Shown here piece after piece: positions 40,928 through 58,060 of a stretch of DNA of 64,000 bases; position 1 is the first letter of the stretch, and each line of letters begins with the position of its first letter. The DNA lies in assembly GCA_964473015.1 (NCBI GenBank), contig CAYYMS010000002.1:154550-218549 (forward strand). The letters run 5' to 3'. This DNA is from an uncultured Anaeroplasmataceae bacterium. Its GTDB lineage: Bacteria; Bacillota_I; Bacilli_A; Acholeplasmatales; Anaeroplasmataceae. Below the pieces are notes generated by a model. It saw nothing but the letters and a program-made list of their open reading frames with translations. It did no database searches and had not been told where the DNA came from. The translations under genes were made by a program, and so were the position numbers.

Positions 40928-41488
40928 TTAATTACCCTTTTTTTCTTGGTAATGTTTTAGCGCCTCAGCAAATCTTTGATAATGTATATTCTCTCTTTGT
41001 CTTAAGAAGGATAAAGGGCCTAAAATTTCTGGATTATCGGTTAAATCCATTAGATGCTCATAAACCGCTCTAGCTTTTTCTTCTGCTGCCATATCCTCAG
41101 TTAAATCCGCAATTACGTCTCCTGAAGAAGCTAGAAGTTTTACTGTATAAGGATTATCTCCTGCATCGGTAGGATAAATTCCTCCTGCATGATCAGCATA
41201 CAACGCTTCAAGTCCTGCTTTCTTGTAATCTTCTGCTGTACAGCCTTGCGTTAAACCTTTCATCATAGCAATCAGAATTTCGATATGAGCCATTTCTTCT
41301 GTAGCAATTTCGGTAAGTAAATTTCTACCAACCAAATCAGGCATAGTCGGTGCCTGCATAAAATAACGAATGCATGCGTTTAATTCTCCTGCATAGCCTC
41401 CAACTTGTGTAATCAAAATTTTTGCAAATTTTAAATCCGGTTTGCTTATATGAACAGGAAATTCTAAATATTTTTTATATTCCCACAT
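40928..41488 (-). CDS. cotJC: Manganese catalase-family spore coat protein CotJC
   Basis: Motifs TQVGG..GEL....RY, IATEEMAHIE, EDMAAEEKAR..YE.L and FLRQRE..H.QRF. Confidence 0.88.
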   Translation of the reverse strand: MWEYKKYLEFPVHISKPDLKFAKILITQVGGYAGELNACIRYFMQAPTMPDLVGRNLLTEIATEEMAHIEILIAMMKGLTQGCTAEDYKKAGLEALYADHAGGIYPTDAGDNPYTVKLLASSGDVIADLTEDMAAEEKARAVYEHLMDLTDNPEILGPLSFLRQRENIHYQRFAEALKHYQEKKGN

Positions 41489-41871
41489 TATTTTTCACTC
41501 CAAGGAAGTTTTAAATCAAAGAAACCATTTAATATTTCACTACCACAGGAAAGAGCAGAAAATTTAGTTTCTATAAATTCACAAATTTTTTTCTTTTCAG
41601 AATTTACTTTTTTTAACATTTCAAATGCTTCTTTATTATTTGGATGTGTACATATATATAAAGTCAATTCAATTCCAGTAAACGTGTATACCTCTAACAT
41701 ATAGATTGCACGTTCAAAATCGGAATTAAAACTAATTTTATCTACTTTATACTTATAAGGGATATATAAATTTTCCCAAATAGAGCCTTTTAAAAATCCT
41801 TTTTCTATATCATTATCAATCACAAATGGCTGAGAGTTTATTTCTAATGTCTTAATAAATATCACTCCCAT
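41488..41871 (-). CDS. cotJB: CotJA-CotJB-like fused spore coat protein
   Basis: CotJA-like GFLKGSIWENLYIPYK followed by CotJB-like ELTLYICTHPNNKEA and terminal PW; directly upstream of cotJC. Start uncertain (41871 ATG or 41856 ATT). Confidence 0.75.
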   Translation of the reverse strand: MGVIFIKTLEINSQPFVIDNDIEKGFLKGSIWENLYIPYKYKVDKISFNSDFERAIYMLEVYTFTGIELTLYICTHPNNKEAFEMLKKVNSEKKKICEFIETKFSALSCGSEILNGFFDLKLPWSEK

Positions 41872-41961
41872 AGTTATTCTATGAGTGGGTATATTATAAT
41901 CATAGGCAAAAATCAAAACCTTTTAGAAAAAAGAAAAAAGCCGTTAACCGGCTTTATATTC

Positions 41962-52102: not shown

Positions 52103-53086
52103 TTAACCTAAATTTGCTTTAAATACTCTTAAAGCATTCAAATGGGTTATTTTATCAATTTCTAAATCTGTAAAGTCTTCTTCTTTCATTCTCTTTATTA
52201 ACCGAGTCATTAAAGAAGCATCTTTTAATTCAATGTCGGAAGGTATTCCATCAAAATCACTTCCTAAGGCCAAAACATCTACTCCTACTAAATTTTTAAT
52301 ATATTTCATATGAGCAATAACACAATCGATTGTATTTTTTCCTTGTTCTTCATTATCATCTAAAAATGCGGCACAATAATTCATTCCCATAATACCACCA
52401 TTTTTAGAAAGCGCAACAATCATATCATCCGTTAAATTGCGAACATGATGACAAACCGACCTTGCATTGGAATGAGAAGCAACGATAGGTTTATTTGTTA
52501 TATTTATAACATCCCAAAAGCCTCGATCCGATAAGTGAGAAACATCAACAATCATACCCAATCGATTCATTTCTTTTACCATGGATTTCCCAAAATCAGT
52601 TAATCCATTTACAGTATTTGGAGTTACAAAATCAGGTATACCATTGTAATATTTTCCATAATTTGGATGACCAACTCCATTTTCGTAATTCCAATTTAAG
52701 CAAATCATTCGGACACCCAAACGATAAAAATTTCTTAAAAAGGAAAGATTGGATTTACATACGCCGCCCTCTTCTATTGTTAGTATTGTTGAAATTTTTT
52801 TGTTGCTATGATTGGATAACAAATCTTGATAGGTATACGCTATTTTTACATTTGTATTTTTTTCAATTTCCTGATAAAATAAATCAATCATTTCAAGGCA
52901 AGTTTCCAAAGGATTATCCTCTGTGTAATGCACAAACATAGCAAAGCATTGGGCATAATAATCCACATGAACTAATTTTTCAATATCAATTTGTAGATTG
53001 GATCTTGATAGTTCCATCTTATTTCCTTTTTTATTTTCTTGATAAATCCTACCTATTGTATCACAATGTAAATCAAAAAAACTCAA
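52103..53086 (-). CDS. Membrane dipeptidase family (M19) peptidase
   Basis: Motifs DLHCDT, TIEEGG, VDVSHL, ASHSNAR, HVRNLTD and GSDFDG. Confidence 0.9.
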   Translation of the reverse strand: MSFFDLHCDTIGRIYQENKKGNKMELSRSNLQIDIEKLVHVDYYAQCFAMFVHYTEDNPLETCLEMIDLFYQEIEKNTNVKIAYTYQDLLSNHSNKKISTILTIEEGGVCKSNLSFLRNFYRLGVRMICLNWNYENGVGHPNYGKYYNGIPDFVTPNTVNGLTDFGKSMVKEMNRLGMIVDVSHLSDRGFWDVINITNKPIVASHSNARSVCHHVRNLTDDMIVALSKNGGIMGMNYCAAFLDDNEEQGKNTIDCVIAHMKYIKNLVGVDVLALGSDFDGIPSDIELKDASLMTRLIKRMKEEDFTDLEIDKITHLNALRVFKANLG

Positions 53087-53788
53087 TTATAATACCTCCT
53101 TAACAAAATTTAAGAACTCTGTTAAAGTATATGTAGGCATATCGATTTTTAAGTTATTCGTATTAATTAAAAAATCAGTAATTAATATTTTTTTTATTTC
53201 TTTTGGTAAATCGGAGAAATCATCTTCTACATCATTTCCAACCATGATGCTACCTTCCATTTTTAAATTTAGTTTTTCAAAAATTTCTTCATAATATAAA
53301 TGATTTGGTTTACAATAGGTACTATTTTCATAAGTGGAAATATAGTCAAAATCATCCGGATTCATATTAGCCCATCGAATTCTTTGTTCGGTACAAATTC
53401 TAGGAAATAACGGATTAGTAGCTAATATAATAAAATAGCCTTTTTTCTTTAATTCTTTAATAATCTCATTTGAGATAGATTGCACCTGAACTATATTGGA
53501 AATGGTATTAAATTCATTTAAATAAAAATCATAAAATACATCTTTTAACCGATCTACATCTGGGTAAGTTTTTTTCATTTGCTTCCAAAATAATTCTTCA
53601 TTCGTTACCCTACCATCATTTTTAACGATGGTATAAGCCGCTTTAGAAAAGGTTTGAAGAAATTCATCTGGCTGATAGCCTAATTCTTTTGCCTTCATAT
53701 ATACTAAATTAAAGTATTGTTTTAAAAATATATCTTGATTCATCTGTAATAGGGTACAATCCAAATCAAATAATATTACAGGTTTCAT
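53087..53788 (-). CDS. HAD-family hydrolase
   Basis: Motifs LFDLDCTL, ATNP, CKPN..YY and MVGND..DD. Confidence 0.85.
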   Translation of the reverse strand: MKPVILFDLDCTLLQMNQDIFLKQYFNLVYMKAKELGYQPDEFLQTFSKAAYTIVKNDGRVTNEELFWKQMKKTYPDVDRLKDVFYDFYLNEFNTISNIVQVQSISNEIIKELKKKGYFIILATNPLFPRICTEQRIRWANMNPDDFDYISTYENSTYCKPNHLYYEEIFEKLNLKMEGSIMVGNDVEDDFSDLPKEIKKILITDFLINTNNLKIDMPTYTLTEFLNFVKEVL

Positions 53789-53790
53789 AT

Positions 53791-54297
53791 TTATTCCTCA
53801 TTTACAAGATATTGCATAATTTCACAAACATACATTTTATGCATATCTCCACTCGAATAAAATTTGTTTTTTAAATCCTCAGGTAAGGCATCATATGGAA
53901 GATCTAAAGCATAAAGTTTTTTCATTTTTAATACATAGTCTGCCTCACATACATAATATCCATTAAAATCGATATCAAAAGTTGCATGTAATCCAGTTTC
54001 TTTAAATTTATCGATTTTATTTCCAGATACGGTTCCAAAATAATTCTTTGCTTCTTTATAGGAATCATTTAAAAAAGATAATGTTACACTATTTGATTTT
54101 TCTATGAAATTATAGGTATGTCTAGAATGTCTTACAAATATAAATGCAATATTTTTTCCCCATAATACTCCTAAGCCACCCCAAGATACGAGCATAGAGT
54201 TAAATCCATTTTGATCTCCACAGGTAAGGATAGGACATACATCTTTAAAATTTTGAAATATATTGTGATTAAATTCTTCTAATCTCTTTTTTAACAT
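53791..54297 (-). CDS. Flavin reductase-like protein
   Basis: Motifs FNSM..SWGG.G.LWGK, FVR.SR.T, GTVSG...DK and D.H.MY.CEI. Confidence 0.8.
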   Translation of the reverse strand: MLKKRLEEFNHNIFQNFKDVCPILTCGDQNGFNSMLVSWGGLGVLWGKNIAFIFVRHSRHTYNFIEKSNSVTLSFLNDSYKEAKNYFGTVSGNKIDKFKETGLHATFDIDFNGYYVCEADYVLKMKKLYALDLPYDALPEDLKNKFYSSGDMHKMYVCEIMQYLVNEE

Positions 54298-54309
54298 ATT
54301 TTTCTCCTT

Positions 54310-55179
54310 TTAATTAAAAATCAGAACTAAAATACATGCTAACAAATTATTTGCCATATGAGCGGCTATTGAAGCGTAAACATTATGATCGGATTTATGA
54401 TAGATGAAACATAATAAAGCTCCACTTGATGCATAGGGAACACATTGTAAAAGCCATACACCAAAATTGGTCATATTCGTAGAAATCATATGTGGTAAAG
54501 TAAATAAGATAATGGAGATAATATAGCAGGCAACGATGCTATATTTTTTAAATACAGAAAATATGACTTTACGGTAAATTAATTCTTCTACTACCGGTGC
54601 AAGTAAAACAGTAGCTAAAATCATAGGAAGCATTCCGCCATTACTTAAAATTATTTCAATTGTGGATTGATTGGCTGAACTTGGCACACAAAAACCAATA
54701 ACAAAATCGATAAGATACGTTACGACTACAAAAAATACTGCCATTACAGGAATGTAGATTGACAAATAATTCTTCTTTTCTTTTAAAGCATTAAAATCAG
54801 TAACAATGTCATCACGCATAAAAAAGGCAACACCAACTAAGGCAATGAAATATCCTAAAAAATTTCCCCAGCCTTGGGCAATGGCATTAACTTTTAGATA
54901 AGGCGCTTCATAAGAACTTAAATCGGTAGTCGAAAGGCTTTCTAATACTGTAGCCGTATCCAAACGATTTAGAATTCCAAGAAAAAGAGCAATACCAATT
55001 GAAATAAATCCTGCAAATAAAAAAAGCATTAAAATATATATTACCGTTGCGACTCCTTTATTGGGACTAAAAATGGTCTTTTTCTTTTTAATGGTGACAT
55101 TTGCATTTTGATTTTGCATATTTACGTTTTGATTTTCAATATTTTCATTTTCTATATCTTTATTTTGATTTTCATTCAT
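54310..55179 (-). CDS. CPBP (CAAX-protease-like) intramembrane metalloprotease
   Basis: Motifs APVVEELIYR, FT.PH and H..NN; multiple TM helices. Confidence 0.87.
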   Translation of the reverse strand: MNENQNKDIENENIENQNVNMQNQNANVTIKKKKTIFSPNKGVATVIYILMLFLFAGFISIGIALFLGILNRLDTATVLESLSTTDLSSYEAPYLKVNAIAQGWGNFLGYFIALVGVAFFMRDDIVTDFNALKEKKNYLSIYIPVMAVFFVVVTYLIDFVIGFCVPSSANQSTIEIILSNGGMLPMILATVLLAPVVEELIYRKVIFSVFKKYSIVACYIISIILFTLPHMISTNMTNFGVWLLQCVPYASSGALLCFIYHKSDHNVYASIAAHMANNLLACILVLIFN

Positions 55180-55267
55180 AAACTATCACATCCTTCATAT
55201 GTATTATATCATTAATACAGGTAAATAAAAAGATTAAATTCATTTTCTGAACTTAATCTTTTTCAAA

Positions 55268-55620: not shown

Positions 55621-56595
55621 TTATACTGCCTCCAATTCTATCACATGTGCAATACATGGCAACGAATTTTTTTGATTGATCATAGTAGGATTCATTAAGA
55701 CTCCAGTTGCACATAGTAAAACACGTTTTAATTCTTTTTTCTCCATTTTCTTTTTTACGTAGGATAATAGTACAGCAGCACTTGTTCCTGGACCACTACC
55801 ACCTGCAAAGACTGGTTGCTTCTCAACATCATATAATATTAAGCCGCAATCCTGATAATTCGTAAGGGTAGGATACCAATCTTCTAAGCCTTTTTTTACG
55901 ACTTCATATCCATAACTAGATAAATCTCCTGTAAGAATTAAATCATAATTTTCTGGTTTTGTTCGTGTCTCTCTAAAATGTTCTATTAAAGATTCTAAGG
56001 CTGCGGGTGCCATTGCTCTACCAAAGTCTAAAGCATCGGTAAATCCTATATCAATGACTTTCCCTAAAGTAAAGCTATTTATTTTAATTTTTGATTTCGT
56101 ATTTCCAATAATGCAGGATGCCGCGATCGTCGAGGTAAAGGTTTGCGTATCTTCTTTTTCTCCTCCATATTCCACTGGATTACGGAATTGTCTTTCCGCA
56201 CTTTGATTATTACTTGAAGTAAAAACCAAAGCATTCTTGACGGTATTTTTATCGATTAATAAGGAGGCAAGACCAATCCCTAAAGCAATGGTCGAGCAGG
56301 CAGAATAAATACCAATTAAGCTAATTAAAAGCTTTCGCATCGTATAGCTTGTTGTGGTAAGCTGGTTGGATAGTTCTCCACCAACAGCTATATCTATATC
56401 TTCTGGCTTTACATTCATTTTTTCAAAAAGCATATCGATGGACTGAGATAACATGGATATTTCACTATTTTCGAAGCAATCCTCTTTAAAATCGGATACA
56501 TAATCCAAATAGGAGGCGATAGGCCCTTTGCCCTCTAGTTTTCCTCCTAATACCATACTATCTAAAAGATAAACATTATTTATTTTGAAGTTCAT
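55621..56595 (-). CDS. spoVAD: Stage V sporulation protein AD
   Basis: Motifs GKLEGKGP, SACST, SAERQFR.P.EYG, G.AMAPAA, TGDL, GGSG and ATG.LM.P. Confidence 0.9.
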   Translation of the reverse strand: MNFKINNVYLLDSMVLGGKLEGKGPIASYLDYVSDFKEDCFENSEISMLSQSIDMLFEKMNVKPEDIDIAVGGELSNQLTTTSYTMRKLLISLIGIYSACSTIALGIGLASLLIDKNTVKNALVFTSSNNQSAERQFRNPVEYGGEKEDTQTFTSTIAASCIIGNTKSKIKINSFTLGKVIDIGFTDALDFGRAMAPAALESLIEHFRETRTKPENYDLILTGDLSSYGYEVVKKGLEDWYPTLTNYQDCGLILYDVEKQPVFAGGSGPGTSAAVLLSYVKKKMEKKELKRVLLCATGVLMNPTMINQKNSLPCIAHVIELEAV

Positions 56596-57035
56596 AGTAA
56601 CACCTCAAAAATATATCGAATTGCAGAAACAACAATAGCACAGGTAGTACCTAAAACAATAACACTTCCAGCAAGCTTTAAACAGTTACTACCAATACCT
56701 AAAACAATACCCTCTTTTTTATATTCCATTGCAGAGCTTACACAGGCATTTGCAAAGCCTGTAATCGGAATGGCAAGACCACATTTTGCAATTTGTCCTA
56801 AATCATCATATATTCCGATTGCAGATAATATACCTGCAAAAGAAATCATTATAATTAATAAATAAAAATTCGCATCATCGGGACTTGTAAAATTTTTTAA
56901 TACATCTAATATGATTTGTCCGGTTAGACATAAAACTCCTCCAAAGAAAAAAGCCTGTAAAAAGTTAAGAAGCATTCGTTTATAATCTCGTTCATAACTA
57001 ACAAGCTTTGCATAATATTTTTTTGAATTCTGCAT
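56592..57035 (-). CDS. spoVAC: Stage V sporulation protein AC
   Basis: Motifs AF..GG..C..GQ, G.YD, PITGFAN...S.A.EYKKEG and LAGSVIV. Confidence 0.9.
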   Translation of the reverse strand: MQNSKKYYAKLVSYERDYKRMLLNFLQAFFFGGVLCLTGQIILDVLKNFTSPDDANFYLLIIMISFAGILSAIGIYDDLGQIAKCGLAIPITGFANACVSSAMEYKKEGIVLGIGSNCLKLAGSVIVLGTTCAIVVSAIRYIFEVLL

Positions 57036-57049
57036 AATATCACCAAATA

Positions 57050-57079
57050 TATTATGCTTACAAAATTATCCTTTTATAC
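57050..57079 (-). promoter_or_regulatory. Sigma-G-type promoter upstream of spoVAC
   Basis: Minus strand GTATA-N18-CATAATA, matching the B. subtilis sigma-G consensus; spoVA is a known sigma-G operon. Confidence 0.7.
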
Positions 57080-57495
57080 TACCATTTTTTTTCAAAATGT
57101 AAAAAGGTTCCTTCATTTTTTTTACTTTCGACGATTAGATTATCGCAAAACATTTCCATAATTGTAAATCCTAATCCACTTCTTTCTTCATCCGCTTTTG
57201 TAGAAAATAAAGCTTCTCTTGCTAAATCGATATCTTCTATTCCAACGCCTTTATCCATAATTTCAATGATCACCTTGTCCGCTTTAACAAAAATATTCAT
57301 ATCAATATATTTATCTTCGTTATTATCATAGCCATGAACAATGGCATTCGTTATCGCTTCACTTACTACTGTTTTTAATTCATTAATAAAAGTAATGGTA
57401 GGATTATTATCTACTAACATAGCTCCCAACATATTTCTTATAACTGCAATATTTGTTCTTTTTGATAAAAAAGTCATTCTTACTTCATTTTCCAT
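57079..57495 (-). CDS. spoIIAB: Anti-sigma factor / Ser kinase SpoIIAB
   Basis: N box ELKTVVSEAITNAIVHGY, G1 DKGVGI, G2 ERSGLGFTIME. Confidence 0.92.
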   Translation of the reverse strand: MENEVRMTFLSKRTNIAVIRNMLGAMLVDNNPTITFINELKTVVSEAITNAIVHGYDNNEDKYIDMNIFVKADKVIIEIMDKGVGIEDIDLAREALFSTKADEERSGLGFTIMEMFCDNLIVESKKNEGTFLHFEKKW

Positions 57496-57496
57496 T

Positions 57497-57847
57497 CTAA
57501 TTTCCCCCTATTGTCATTAAAGTAGCATCTTCTGTTTCTTTTATTAAACAAATTTTTCCTAATCCTGATAATTGTATAATACGTTCTATTTTTGGATTTA
57601 TACTGCAAATCATTACATCACCATTTAACTTTTTTAACTGATGAAATCTTCCTATGATAAAGCCTATACCAGAAGAATCCATAAAATCAAGCTTTTCTAC
57701 ATTGATAATTAAATGCTTTATTTTATAATCATCAATATACCTACTTATTCTTGTTCTTAAATCCGTTACAGATAAATCATCTAGCTCTCCTTTTAATCTT
57801 AGGATTAAAGCATTGCCTTTTACATATACTCCAACAGAAAGTCCCAT
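57497..57847 (-). CDS. spoIIAA: Anti-anti-sigma factor SpoIIAA (STAS)
   Basis: Motif RLKGELD and phosphoacceptor motif DFMDSSGIG.IIGR. Confidence 0.9.
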   Translation of the reverse strand: MGLSVGVYVKGNALILRLKGELDDLSVTDLRTRISRYIDDYKIKHLIINVEKLDFMDSSGIGFIIGRFHQLKKLNGDVMICSINPKIERIIQLSGLGKICLIKETEDATLMTIGGN

Positions 57848-57895
57848 ATCATCACCAGCAAGATTATAAAATATAATTTACGGAAAAAAAACAGA

Positions 57896-57902
57896 TTCGA
57901 CA
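57896..57902 (-). promoter_or_regulatory. Spo0A box upstream of spoIIAA
   Basis: Minus strand TGTCGAA, a perfect TGNCGAA match, 48 bp before the start codon. Confidence 0.45.
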
Positions 57903-57986
57903 AAACTAGAACTTTATTTCGTTTTACAAATTTCGTGCATTTTTATAAAAAAGAAAACGGCTAAATTAGCCGCTTATATTTTATAC

Positions 57987-58060
57987 TGGTGCTCACTGTA
58001 AGAATCGAACTTACCTTTTGGCCTTACCATGGCCACGTTCTACCGATGAACTAAGAGAGC
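57987..58060 (-). tRNA. tRNA-Thr (GGT)
   Basis: Cloverleaf GCTCTCT / GTTC D-stem / TGGCC-ATGGTAA-GGCCA / GTAAG-TTCGATT-CTTAC / AGTGAGC-A-CCA. Confidence 0.93.

What the first reader, a model, noticed from the sequence alone, without database searches (positions are those of the whole stretch)
57036..57079. Consensus sigma-G promoter in the 43-bp gap where sigF would be
Seen: the minus strand reads TAG(stop)TATA..., giving GTATA-N18-CATAATA and then GGTGA-N4-ATG. The -35 element shares its G with the spoIIAB stop codon. Established: this matches the forespore sigma-G consensus, and spoVA is sigma-G-dependent in B. subtilis. Inference: retaining both boxes at the right spacing implies ongoing selection, so the spoVA genes are probably not dead relics and a sigma-G-like factor is probably active.
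Basis: partly seen in the sequence, partly recalled or inferred. Interest (0 to 1): 0.62.

Follow-up and report, generated by a model that had tools for sequence, protein, structure and literature searches.

The report
Conserved forespore promoter of spoVAC operon
The 43-base gap holds a real, evolutionarily conserved spore-compartment promoter for the spoVA (dipicolinate channel) genes in an uncultured, mycoplasma-related gut bacterium. This shows its sporulation genes are in use, although I could not check which sigma factor reads the promoter.

Summary
On the minus strand the spoIIAB stop TAG (57081-57079) overlaps GTATA. Then come 18 nt, CATAATA (57056-57050), GGTGA, 4 nt and the spoVAC ATG (57035).

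One sequence alone proves nothing: the exact pattern is expected 0.56 times per window by chance. The evidence is comparative. Ten diverged relatives share the sigF-less order spoIIAA-spoIIAB-spoVAC-AD-AE, with synonymous sites saturated and dN/dS about 0.1. They keep the -10 box (9 of 10 CATNNTA, one AATAATA), an NWATA -35 at exactly 18 nt and the GGTGAT ribosome site, while the spacer has drifted to 37% identity. Sister lineages that still carry a sigF-like gene have the same boxes between sigF and spoVAC, so the promoter is ancestral. It matches the position of the mapped sigma-G promoter of C. difficile spoVAC.

One addition: the -10 box pairs with the start-codon region. This hairpin could silence read-through mRNA from the conserved Spo0A-box promoter of spoIIAA.

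Verdict: a real but ordinary kind of element, a new member of a known class.

The parts
57497..57847 (-). spoIIAA, the anti-anti-sigma STAS protein, with the phosphorylatable serine in DSSG
   Evidence: TIGR02886, 110.8 bits, just under the 114.75 cut-off; aligns over its full length to SpoIIAA structures 1AUZ and 1TH8_B; 'fmdssgig'
57079..57495 (-). spoIIAB, the anti-sigma F/G kinase, intact (R20, N, G1 and G2 boxes); its stop codon overlaps the -35 box
   Evidence: TIGR01925, 155.5 bits, above the cut-off of 135; residues 1-136 aligned to 1TH8_A and 1L0O_A
57075..57079 (-). -35 box GTATA (consensus GHATR)
   Evidence: In 13 related junctions the last three bases, ATA, are invariant at exactly 18 nt from the -10. 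The box keeps that spacing where it no longer touches a stop codon (L022, L016, L036, L031).
57057..57074 (-). 18-nt spacer, not conserved
   Evidence: mean pairwise identity 37% among relatives
57050..57056 (-). -10 box CATAATA (consensus CATNHTA)
   Evidence: 12 of 13 related junctions read CATNNTA and one reads AATAATA, which is the -10 of the mapped C. difficile spoVAC sigma-G promoter
57042..57045 (-). predicted transcription start, 5-8 nt after the -10 (inferred, not mapped)
   Evidence: by analogy with the mapped C. difficile spoVAC start, 5 nt after its -10; the RNA data gave no resolution
57039..57044 (-). ribosome-binding site GGTGAT
   Evidence: invariant in all 10 sigF-less relatives
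57032..57057 (-). predicted mRNA hairpin. The 5' arm GCAUAAUAU (57057-57049) contains the -10 box. The loop (57048-57041) holds most of the SD. The 3' arm AUAUUAUGC (57040-57032) contains the start codon. It can form only in transcripts that start upstream of the promoter.
   Evidence: -8.8 kcal/mol, z -3.7; the same hairpin is the MFE structure in 10 of 13 relatives; 47 of 65 non-trivial pairs against 28.1 +/- 3.4 expected from other gene starts
56592..57035 (-). spoVAC
   Evidence: TIGR02838, E 5e-39, 133.2 bits, below the cut-off of 164; Pfam PF03862
55621..56595 (-). spoVAD
   Evidence: NF006160, E 1e-105; Pfam PF07451
55268..55618 (-). spoVAE (spoVAEb type, 116 aa as called on the identical contigs)
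   Evidence: TIGR02839, E 3e-34
57896..57905 (-). Spo0A-box TTTTGTCGAA upstream of spoIIAA, in the -35 position of the upstream promoter
   Evidence: invariant in all 10 sigF-less relatives, 55-59 nt before the spoIIAA ATG
57863..57868 (-). TATAAT -10 of the presumed Spo0A-activated sigma-A-type promoter of spoIIAA-spoIIAB
   Evidence: TTATAAT is invariant in all 10 relatives

Best explanation
The gap holds the working forespore-type promoter (sigma-G/sigma-F class) of the spoVAC-spoVAD-spoVAE operon. It is the counterpart of the sigma-G-dependent promoter mapped upstream of spoVAC in Clostridioides difficile.

Shown: the GTATA -35 and CATAATA -10, 18 nt apart, lie 15 nt before the spoVAC ATG. 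The boxes, their spacing and the ribosome site are held constant across a whole clade of Anaeroplasmataceae-like gut bacteria, while everything between them has drifted. The same promoter sits between a sigF-like gene and spoVAC in sister lineages. It is therefore older than the removal of sigF from this locus and survived that removal.

Inferred: RNA polymerase carrying a forespore sigma factor encoded elsewhere in the genome starts transcription about 5-8 nt after the -10, at the GGUGAU ribosome site. This makes the DPA-channel proteins in the developing spore.

Inferred with less confidence (about 0.4): no terminator follows spoIIAB, so the Spo0A-box promoter of spoIIAA also reads into spoVAC. 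On that longer mRNA the -10 box sequence pairs with the start-codon region and blocks translation. Only the forespore transcript would then be translated well.
For: Anatomy.

Same sigF-less gene order: found in identical contigs from 23 metagenome contigs and in ten diverged lineages with SpoVAD identity 55-82%.

Junction comparison: the -10 is CATNNTA in 12 of 13 junctions. The ATA of the -35 is invariant at N18 in 13 of 13, including L022, where the box is displaced 7 nt from the stop codon, and L016, where it follows an inserted gene. GGTGAT is invariant in the clade. Spacer identity is only 37%.

Neutral sites are saturated (pS 0.6-0.9) and dN/dS is 0.08-0.17 for spoIIAA, spoIIAB, spoVAC and spoVAD.

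Sister lineages with spoIIAA-sigF-spoVAC have exact GTATA-N18-CATAATA (L036, L031) or TCATA-N18-CATAATA (L029) after sigF.

Specificity: a composite scan (boxes + SD + start + ORF) over 22 loci gave 13 hits. Eleven were at the first gene of a spoVA operon, including spoVAA in a Bacilli-type locus.

Literature: C. difficile spoVAC-AD-AE is a sigma-G regulon operon with a mapped promoter (PMC3789822).

Other points: no terminator or significant structure in the gap. Hairpin. Precedent at B. subtilis sigG: PMC5942855. Intact partner switch. Conserved Spo0A box upstream of spoIIAA.
Against: No sigma-F/G-type gene was found in the 64-kb window or in any sigF-less locus I hold.

No transcription start is mapped. 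No RNA run holds the window. For the relative L024 only assembled contigs were available. Some cross the junction (X13, X16, X9, X10, X7) and some break there (X12, X14), and several libraries clearly contain DNA.

The motif is not enriched in the window, and no second forespore gene was available to show a regulon.

One relative (L035) has AATAATA instead of CATAATA.

The predicted start leaves a very short leader, with the SD at the extreme 5' end.

Part of the conservation of the -10 could be due to the hairpin rather than to promoter function.
Confidence: 0.8

Rival explanations
1. It is a forespore promoter, but it is read by a sigma-F-type factor (a relocated sigF) rather than by sigma-G, or by both in turn.
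For: [quoted passage not shown] In C. difficile they differ mainly by a G just upstream of the -10 (PMC3789822). The window, L014, L015 and L022 have that G. In sister lineages the gene directly upstream is a SigF-like sigma (best NCBIfam hit SigF), and the promoter there is identical. Intact SpoIIAA/SpoIIAB implies a cognate sigma.
Against: In B. subtilis terms the -10 is of the CATNHTA type rather than GGNNANANT. spoVA is sigma-G-dependent in both model organisms (B. subtilis from established knowledge; C. difficile). The G upstream of the -10 is not conserved: the other six of ten relatives have T or C.
Confidence: 0.25
2. The conserved sequence is not a promoter. It is kept only as one arm of an mRNA hairpin, or as a DNA palindrome bound by a regulator, that controls spoVAC translation or transcription within a single spoIIAA-to-spoVAE transcript.
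For: The -10 region is complementary to the start-codon region. The hairpin is the MFE structure in 10 of 13 relatives, with z down to -3.9. Pairing exceeds the background from 58 other gene starts, 47 against 28.1 +/- 3.4. L035 lost the C of the -10 but keeps a shifted hairpin. There is no terminator after spoIIAB, and some RNA-library contigs span the junction.
Against: A hairpin does not explain the invariant ATA of the -35 at exactly 18 nt in 13 of 13 junctions, including four where it is free of any stop codon. It does not explain why the same two boxes precede spoVAA in a locus with another gene order. It does not explain the match to an experimentally mapped promoter. The hairpin is weak or absent in L016, L023 and L031. 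CAT/ATG complementarity is trivial.
Confidence: 0.1
3. It is a housekeeping (sigma-A) or other non-sporulation promoter that happens to resemble the sigma-G consensus.
For: CATAAT is 5 of 6 of TATAAT. The consensus scan lists a weak TTGTAA-18-TATTAT site in the gap.
Against: The variants CATACTA and CATGCTA in relatives fit CATNHTA but are poor sigma-A -10 boxes. No TTGACA-like -35 is conserved. Sigma-70-like sites in the region are no more frequent than in shuffles, 25 against 29.
Confidence: 0.04
4. It is a chance match in AT-rich DNA with no function.
For: The exact pattern is expected 0.56 times per window, and the degenerate pattern occurs at chance frequency.
Against: The boxes and their spacing are conserved across lineages whose synonymous sites are saturated, while the spacer is random.
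Confidence: 0.02

Closest known systems
Sigma-G-dependent promoter of spoVAC-spoVAD-spoVAE (CD0773-0775) in Clostridioides difficile 630, with its start mapped by RNA-seq (Saujet et al. 2013, PMC3789822)
   Same: It lies directly upstream of spoVAC, immediately after the spoIIA operon. It drives the same three-gene operon and has the same architecture, a G-type -35, about 18 nt, then (C)AATAATA, with the start a few nt downstream.
   Different: Here the upstream gene is spoIIAB, not sigF, and the -35 shares a base with its stop codon. The -10 has the canonical CAT. The leader is only about 10-12 nt. Dependence on sigma-G is not shown here.
Bacillus subtilis spoVA operon promoter (sigma-G regulon; consensus GHATR-N17-18-CATXHTA; from established knowledge)
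   Same: Perfect match to the consensus in both boxes and in the spacing. It controls DPA-channel genes and lies next to the spoIIA operon.
   Different: B. subtilis starts the operon with spoVAA-AB. Those genes are absent here, as in Clostridia.
Hairpin that blocks translation of sigG on read-through transcripts from PspoIIG in B. subtilis and cannot form in transcripts from PsigG (PMC5942855)
   Same: An internal forespore promoter lies inside or next to the 5' arm of a hairpin that occludes the translation start of the downstream gene. Only the long upstream transcript can fold it.
   Different: It is at a different gene (spoVAC rather than sigG). The stem is much shorter, 6-9 A-U-rich pairs against more than 20. 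It is predicted only and has not been tested.
Canonical spoIIAA-spoIIAB-sigF operon of Bacilli and Clostridia
   Same: SpoIIAA and SpoIIAB are intact and under purifying selection. A Spo0A box precedes the operon.
   Different: The sigma gene is missing from the operon throughout this clade. Sister lineages instead lack spoIIAB and keep the sigma.

Membership tests
Sigma-G-dependent promoters (GHATR-N17-18-CATXHTA) | -35 box matching GHATR | tested here: met
   GTATA at 57079-57075. In relatives the box reads GTATA, GAATA, TAATA or AAATA, with ATA invariant.
Sigma-G-dependent promoters (GHATR-N17-18-CATXHTA) | 17-18 nt spacing between the boxes | tested here: met
   18 nt in the window and in all 13 related junctions.
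Sigma-G-dependent promoters (GHATR-N17-18-CATXHTA) | -10 box matching CATXHTA | tested here: met
   CATAATA at 57056-57050; CATNNTA in 12 of 13 relatives.
Sigma-G-dependent promoters (GHATR-N17-18-CATXHTA) | Transcription start 5-9 nt downstream of the -10 | tested here: inconclusive
   No RNA run holds the window. For the relative L024 only assembled contigs were available, and some of those libraries contain DNA.
Sigma-G-dependent promoters (GHATR-N17-18-CATXHTA) | A sigG gene in the same genome, and dependence of the promoter on it | not testable with these tools
There is no sigma gene in the window or in the clade loci. SigG-like genes in spoIIGA-sigE-sigG clusters were found in AT-rich MAGs of unknown lineage, but I could not link them to this clade.
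Sigma-F-dependent promoters (GCATR-N15-GGNNANANT) | G residues just upstream of the -10 | tested here: inconclusive
   One G precedes CAT in the window and in 3 of 9 relatives; the others have T or C. This cannot exclude dual recognition.
Clostridial-type spoVA operon (spoVAC-spoVAD-spoVAEb) | Three adjacent genes matching the SpoVAC, SpoVAD and SpoVAE families | tested here: met
   Best NCBIfam hits have E 5e-39, 1e-105 and 3e-34, but all three score below the curated equivalog cut-offs. Pfam families are PF03862, PF07451 and PF03862.
spoIIA partner-switch operon | The operon spoIIAA-spoIIAB-sigF includes the sigma gene | tested here: not met
   Only 43 nt separate spoIIAB and spoVAC. The same holds in ten related lineages.
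Read-through-silencing hairpin (as at B. subtilis sigG) | Complementary arms that occlude the translation start and lie partly upstream of the internal promoter's start site | tested here: inconclusive
   The hairpin is predicted in 10 of 13 sequences and pairing is above background. However, the stems are short and A-U-rich, covariation is limited, and no experiment has been done.

The most novel reading that the evidence does not exclude
This clade has lost sigF from the genome altogether, not merely moved it. A single sigma-G-type factor, held in check by the retained SpoIIAA/SpoIIAB switch (SpoIIAB is known to inhibit sigma-G in B. subtilis), runs the whole forespore programme, including this promoter. 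That would be a three-sigma sporulation cascade in a family classed with the wall-less, non-sporulating mollicutes. In the same reading, the promoter's -10 box doubles as the arm of a hairpin that keeps spoVAC untranslated on mRNA coming from the Spo0A-dependent spoIIA promoter.
Probability: 0.2. Interest if true: 0.8.

Novelty: new member of a known kind. Interest (0 to 1): 0.4.

Why it matters
A conserved forespore promoter, with spoVA and spoIIA genes under purifying selection, is direct sequence-level evidence for a live sporulation programme. It occurs in a clade of uncultured gut bacteria labelled Anaeroplasmataceae, a family long treated as non-sporulating. A 2024 genome survey only suspected this (PMC10868615).

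It also sharpens a testable question. These genomes keep the anti-sigma switch and a sigma-F/G-type promoter but have no sigma gene in the operon, so which sigma factor does the switch control? A single whole-genome profile search would answer it.

The predicted hairpin suggests how an internal compartment-specific promoter can stay meaningful without a terminator upstream.

Tried and rejected

2. Genome-contig scan with SpoVAD. It gave only three distant loci, because the peptide patterns were poor.

3. Indirect hunts for the clade's sigma factor.
- hmmsearch of a SigF-like profile against the window and all clade loci found nothing.
- A profile search of 1.84 billion representatives gave 150 unnamed hits. 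Cluster look-ups returned no organism names.
- A lead that cotJ lies beside ftsZ in a relative led only to loci syntenic with the window, with no sigma gene.
- Divergent SigG-like baits found spoIIGA-sigE-sigG clusters (L037, L038) in AT-rich MAGs. Their lineage could not be tied to this clade. The accessions are not in the paper's table, and DnaJ is only 38% identical to a sister-lineage DnaJ.
- A walk upstream of ileS in Ca. Pelethenecus found no sigma cluster.

4. RNA evidence.
- No RNA run holds the window.
- Runs holding the relative L024 are stored only as contigs, and several contain DNA, with contigs of 50-110 kb. No 5' ends could be read.

5. Regulon test inside the window. No other correctly placed motif and no other known forespore gene was found.

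6. Rejected readings. An intrinsic terminator in the gap is not supported. The 180-aa ORF inserted in L016 is not a sigF remnant: it is a membrane protein with no sigma similarity.

Full report
THE OBSERVATION. On the minus strand the sequence reads ...AAATGG TAG TATAAAAGGATAATTTTGTAAG CATAATA TATTT GGTGA TATT ATG CAG....
- The TAG at 57081-57079 ends a 138-aa ORF. That ORF is SpoIIAB by NCBIfam (TIGR01925, 155.5 bits, above the curated cut-off) and aligns over its full length with SpoIIAB crystal structures, keeping R20 and the N, G1 and G2 boxes.
- The ATG at 57035 starts SpoVAC. SpoVAD and SpoVAE follow, and SpoIIAA with its DSSG serine precedes.
The G of the -35 is the last base of the stop codon.
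- There is no room for a sigma gene.

IS IT MORE THAN CHANCE? Not as a string.
- GTATA-N17/18-CATNNTA occurs once in the window against 0.56 expected, and 45 of 100 shuffles have at least one match.
- The degenerate consensus occurs 4 times against 3.6 expected.

WHO THE RELATIVES ARE.
- Identical SpoIIAB is encoded on 23 gut-metagenome contigs with the same gene order.
- SpoVAD homologues of 55-82% identity come from uncultured gut MAGs. NCBI labels them 'Anaeroplasmataceae bacterium' or 'Erysipelotrichaceae bacterium'.
- A CotJC homologue in a locus syntenic with the window is labelled Candidatus Pelethenecus, placed under Mollicutes incertae sedis.
- A published survey noted that most Anaeroplasmataceae genomes carry sporulation genes, including spo0A, and may form spores (PMC10868615).

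THE SIGF-LESS ORDER IS A CLADE TRAIT. Ten distinct lineages have spoIIAA-spoIIAB-spoVAC-AD-AE with a 41-50 nt gap: the window, L014/L018, L015, L019, L035, L017, L020/L023, L024, L021/L022 and L016. L016 has an unrelated 180-aa membrane ORF inserted.
- Pairwise comparisons give pN 0.09-0.25 and pS 0.6-0.9 (saturated).
- dN/dS is 0.08-0.17 where it can be computed, for spoIIAA, spoIIAB, spoVAC and spoVAD.
- The genes are under strong purifying selection, and neutral positions between these genomes are randomised.

THE PROMOTER IS CONSERVED.
- The -10 box is CATAATA in 4 lineages, CATACTA in 4, CATGCTA in 1 and AATAATA in 1.
- Exactly 18 nt upstream lies GTATA (5), TAATA (3), GAATA (1) or AAATA (1). 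The ATA is invariant.
- GGTGAT is invariant.
- Mean pairwise identity is 87% for the -10, 77% for the -35, 100% for the SD and 37% for the 18-nt spacer.
- In L022 the -35 is displaced 7 nt from the stop codon, and in L016 it follows the inserted gene. In both it keeps the 18-nt spacing, so the conservation is not a side effect of the stop-codon context.
- The AATAATA variant (L035) is the -10 of the experimentally mapped C. difficile spoVAC promoter, AATAGGTTTATTTTTTTAAA-ATTAACAATAATACTTTA (supplementary table of PMC3789822).

THE PROMOTER IS OLDER THAN THE LOSS OF SIGF. Lineages with SpoVAD of 49% identity or less have spoIIAA, a SigF-like sigma of 216-221 aa, then spoVAC, and no spoIIAB (L011, L029, L031, L036).
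- Between that sigma gene and spoVAC they carry GTATA-N18-CATAATA (L031, L036), TCATA-N18-CATAATA (L029) or GCATA-N18-AATAAAT (L011).
- In a Bacilli-type locus (L025) the two boxes stand before spoVAA, the first gene of that operon.
- A composite scan (boxes, SD, start, ORF of 50 aa or more) over 22 loci gave 13 hits. Eleven were at the first gene of a spoVA operon.
- The element therefore tracks the start of the spoVA operon, whichever gene lies upstream.

WHAT IS KNOWN.
- In C. difficile, spoVAC-AD-AE follows sigF, belongs to the sigma-G regulon and has a mapped sigma-G promoter.
[quoted passage not shown] They differ mainly by a G just upstream of the -10 for sigma-F and an A downstream of it for sigma-G (PMC3789822).
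- In B. subtilis, spoVA is sigma-G-dependent, and the consensus is GHATR-N17-18-CATXHTA (established knowledge).
- The window matches that consensus perfectly.
- The base before CAT is G in 4 of 10 lineages and T or C in the others.
- 'Forespore sigma-F/G class, best fit sigma-G' is as far as sequence goes.

WHICH SIGMA READS IT? This could not be settled.
- No sigma gene lies in the window or in any clade locus.
- I found divergent SigG-like genes in canonical spoIIGA-sigE-sigG-ylmC-sepF-ylmH-divIVA-ileS clusters in AT-rich MAGs (L037, L038). They have a sigma-F-type GAATA-N14/15-GGTGAGACT promoter before sigG.
- I could not show that those MAGs belong to this clade.
- Indirect support for a cognate sigma: SpoIIAA and SpoIIAB are intact and constrained, and SpoIIAB also inhibits sigma-G in B. 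subtilis (PMC5942855).
- All ten clade loci keep an invariant Spo0A box, TTTTGTCGAA, plus TTATAAT upstream of spoIIAA.
- The survey by Galperin and colleagues reports all four sporulation sigma genes in every spore-former examined. Complete loss of sigF would therefore be unusual.

A SECOND LAYER: A HAIRPIN. No terminator or significant structure separates spoIIAB from spoVAC, so the spoIIAA promoter should read through.
- In the window, GCAUAAUAU (57057-57049, containing the -10) pairs with AUAUUAUGC (57040-57032, containing the start codon). The SD lies in the loop. The energy is -8.8 kcal/mol and z is -3.7.
- The equivalent hairpin is the MFE structure in 10 of 13 related junctions.
- CAT:ATG pairing is trivial, so I set it aside. 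Of the remaining anchored positions, 47 of 65 pair. Pairing the same arms with 58 other gene starts of the window gives 28.1 +/- 3.4, and none of 5,000 draws reaches 47.
- L022 shows a partly compensated variant (CATGCTA with TAGAATG). The pair flanking CAT/ATG switches from G-C to C-G or U-G.
- A transcript starting 5-8 nt after the -10 lacks the 5' arm.
- The same logic has been described for B. subtilis sigG and read-through from PspoIIG (PMC5942855).
- Caveats: the sequences are related, the stems are short and A-U-rich, and the hairpin is weak in L016, L023 and L031. I hold this part at about 0.4.

RNA DATA.
- No RNA run holds the window.
- The relative L024 is present in mouse-gut metatranscriptome libraries, but only as assembled contigs.
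- Two libraries with short contigs break at the junction: X12 ends 73 nt before the ATG, and X14 starts 24 nt after it.
- Five others span the junction, and several contain 50-110 kb contigs, meaning DNA.
- The genes are represented in RNA libraries, but no start site can be read.

VERDICT.
This is a functional, selected forespore promoter, and the spoVA genes are not relics.
- The sigma-G label and the existence of the sigma factor remain untested.
- As a kind of element it is ordinary: the counterpart of a known, mapped promoter.
- Its value lies in context. It marks a live sporulation programme in a mollicute-affiliated gut clade. It also frames the open question of what the sigF-less SpoIIAA/SpoIIAB switch controls.

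Noticed in passing
window 57863-57905 (-), and 55-59 nt upstream of spoIIAA in L014-L017, L019, L022-L024, L035: An invariant Spo0A box, TTTTGTCGAA, is followed about 22 nt later by an invariant TTATAAT. A second, looser TTTGTC-type box lies about 25-35 nt further upstream. Together they look like a Spo0A-activated sigma-A-type promoter for spoIIAA-spoIIAB, conserved in all ten sigF-less lineages.
   Followed up: partly
L011, L029, L031, L036 (sister lineages): A complementary arrangement: spoIIAA, then a short SigF-like sigma (216-221 aa, lacking the N-terminal ~40 residues), then spoVAC, with no spoIIAB. The SpoVAD tree therefore splits into a 'no sigma' branch (55% identity or more to the window) and a 'no anti-sigma' branch (49% or less).
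   Followed up: partly
L040/L041 1-1000 (Ca. Pelethenecus-type contigs syntenic with the window at cotJ-plsY-parEC): The trio Rce1-like, flavin reductase and M19 dipeptidase follows spoVAE in the window's clade. Here it stands alone behind a divergent CdAMP_rec gene, and the whole spoIIA-spoVA block is absent from this position.
   Followed up: no
L016 3829-4554: A 180-aa predicted membrane protein with no family match is inserted between spoIIAB and spoVAC. It is preceded by a long perfect palindrome (AAAGCAATAAAAATGGATTAG...CTAATCCATTTTTATTGCTTT). The spoVAC promoter is retained downstream of it.
   Followed up: no
window 57010-57039 (+): A mirror-image match, GCATA-N18-CATAATA, lies on the opposite strand and overlaps the spoVAC start. 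It is a consequence of the inverted repeat GCATAATAT/ATATTATGC plus a second ATTATGCA at spoVAC codons 7-9.
   Followed up: partly
window 40928-41916 (-): A fused or short cotJB (PF12652) and cotJC (Mn-catalase family) pair, which are mother-cell spore-coat genes, lies next to plsY-parE-parC. The synteny is conserved in relatives L033 and L034.
   Followed up: partly
window 57987-58060 (-) and 57955-57975: A tRNA-Thr(GGU) gene with its own hairpin terminator lies directly upstream of the spoIIAA promoter region.
   Followed up: no
L037 1700-1800; L038 7910-8000: In AT-rich MAGs of unknown lineage, sigG in a spoIIGA-sigE-sigG-ylmC-sepF-ylmH-divIVA-ileS cluster is preceded by a sigma-F-type promoter, GAATA-N15 (N14 in L038)-GGTGAGACT.
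   Followed up: no
window 55180-55267 and downstream genes 52103-55179 (-): No terminator was detected after spoVAE. The Rce1-like CPBP protease, flavin reductase, HAD hydrolase and M19 dipeptidase genes follow in the same orientation, and they are syntenic in L014, L016, L017 and L035. They may belong to the same transcription unit.
   Followed up: no
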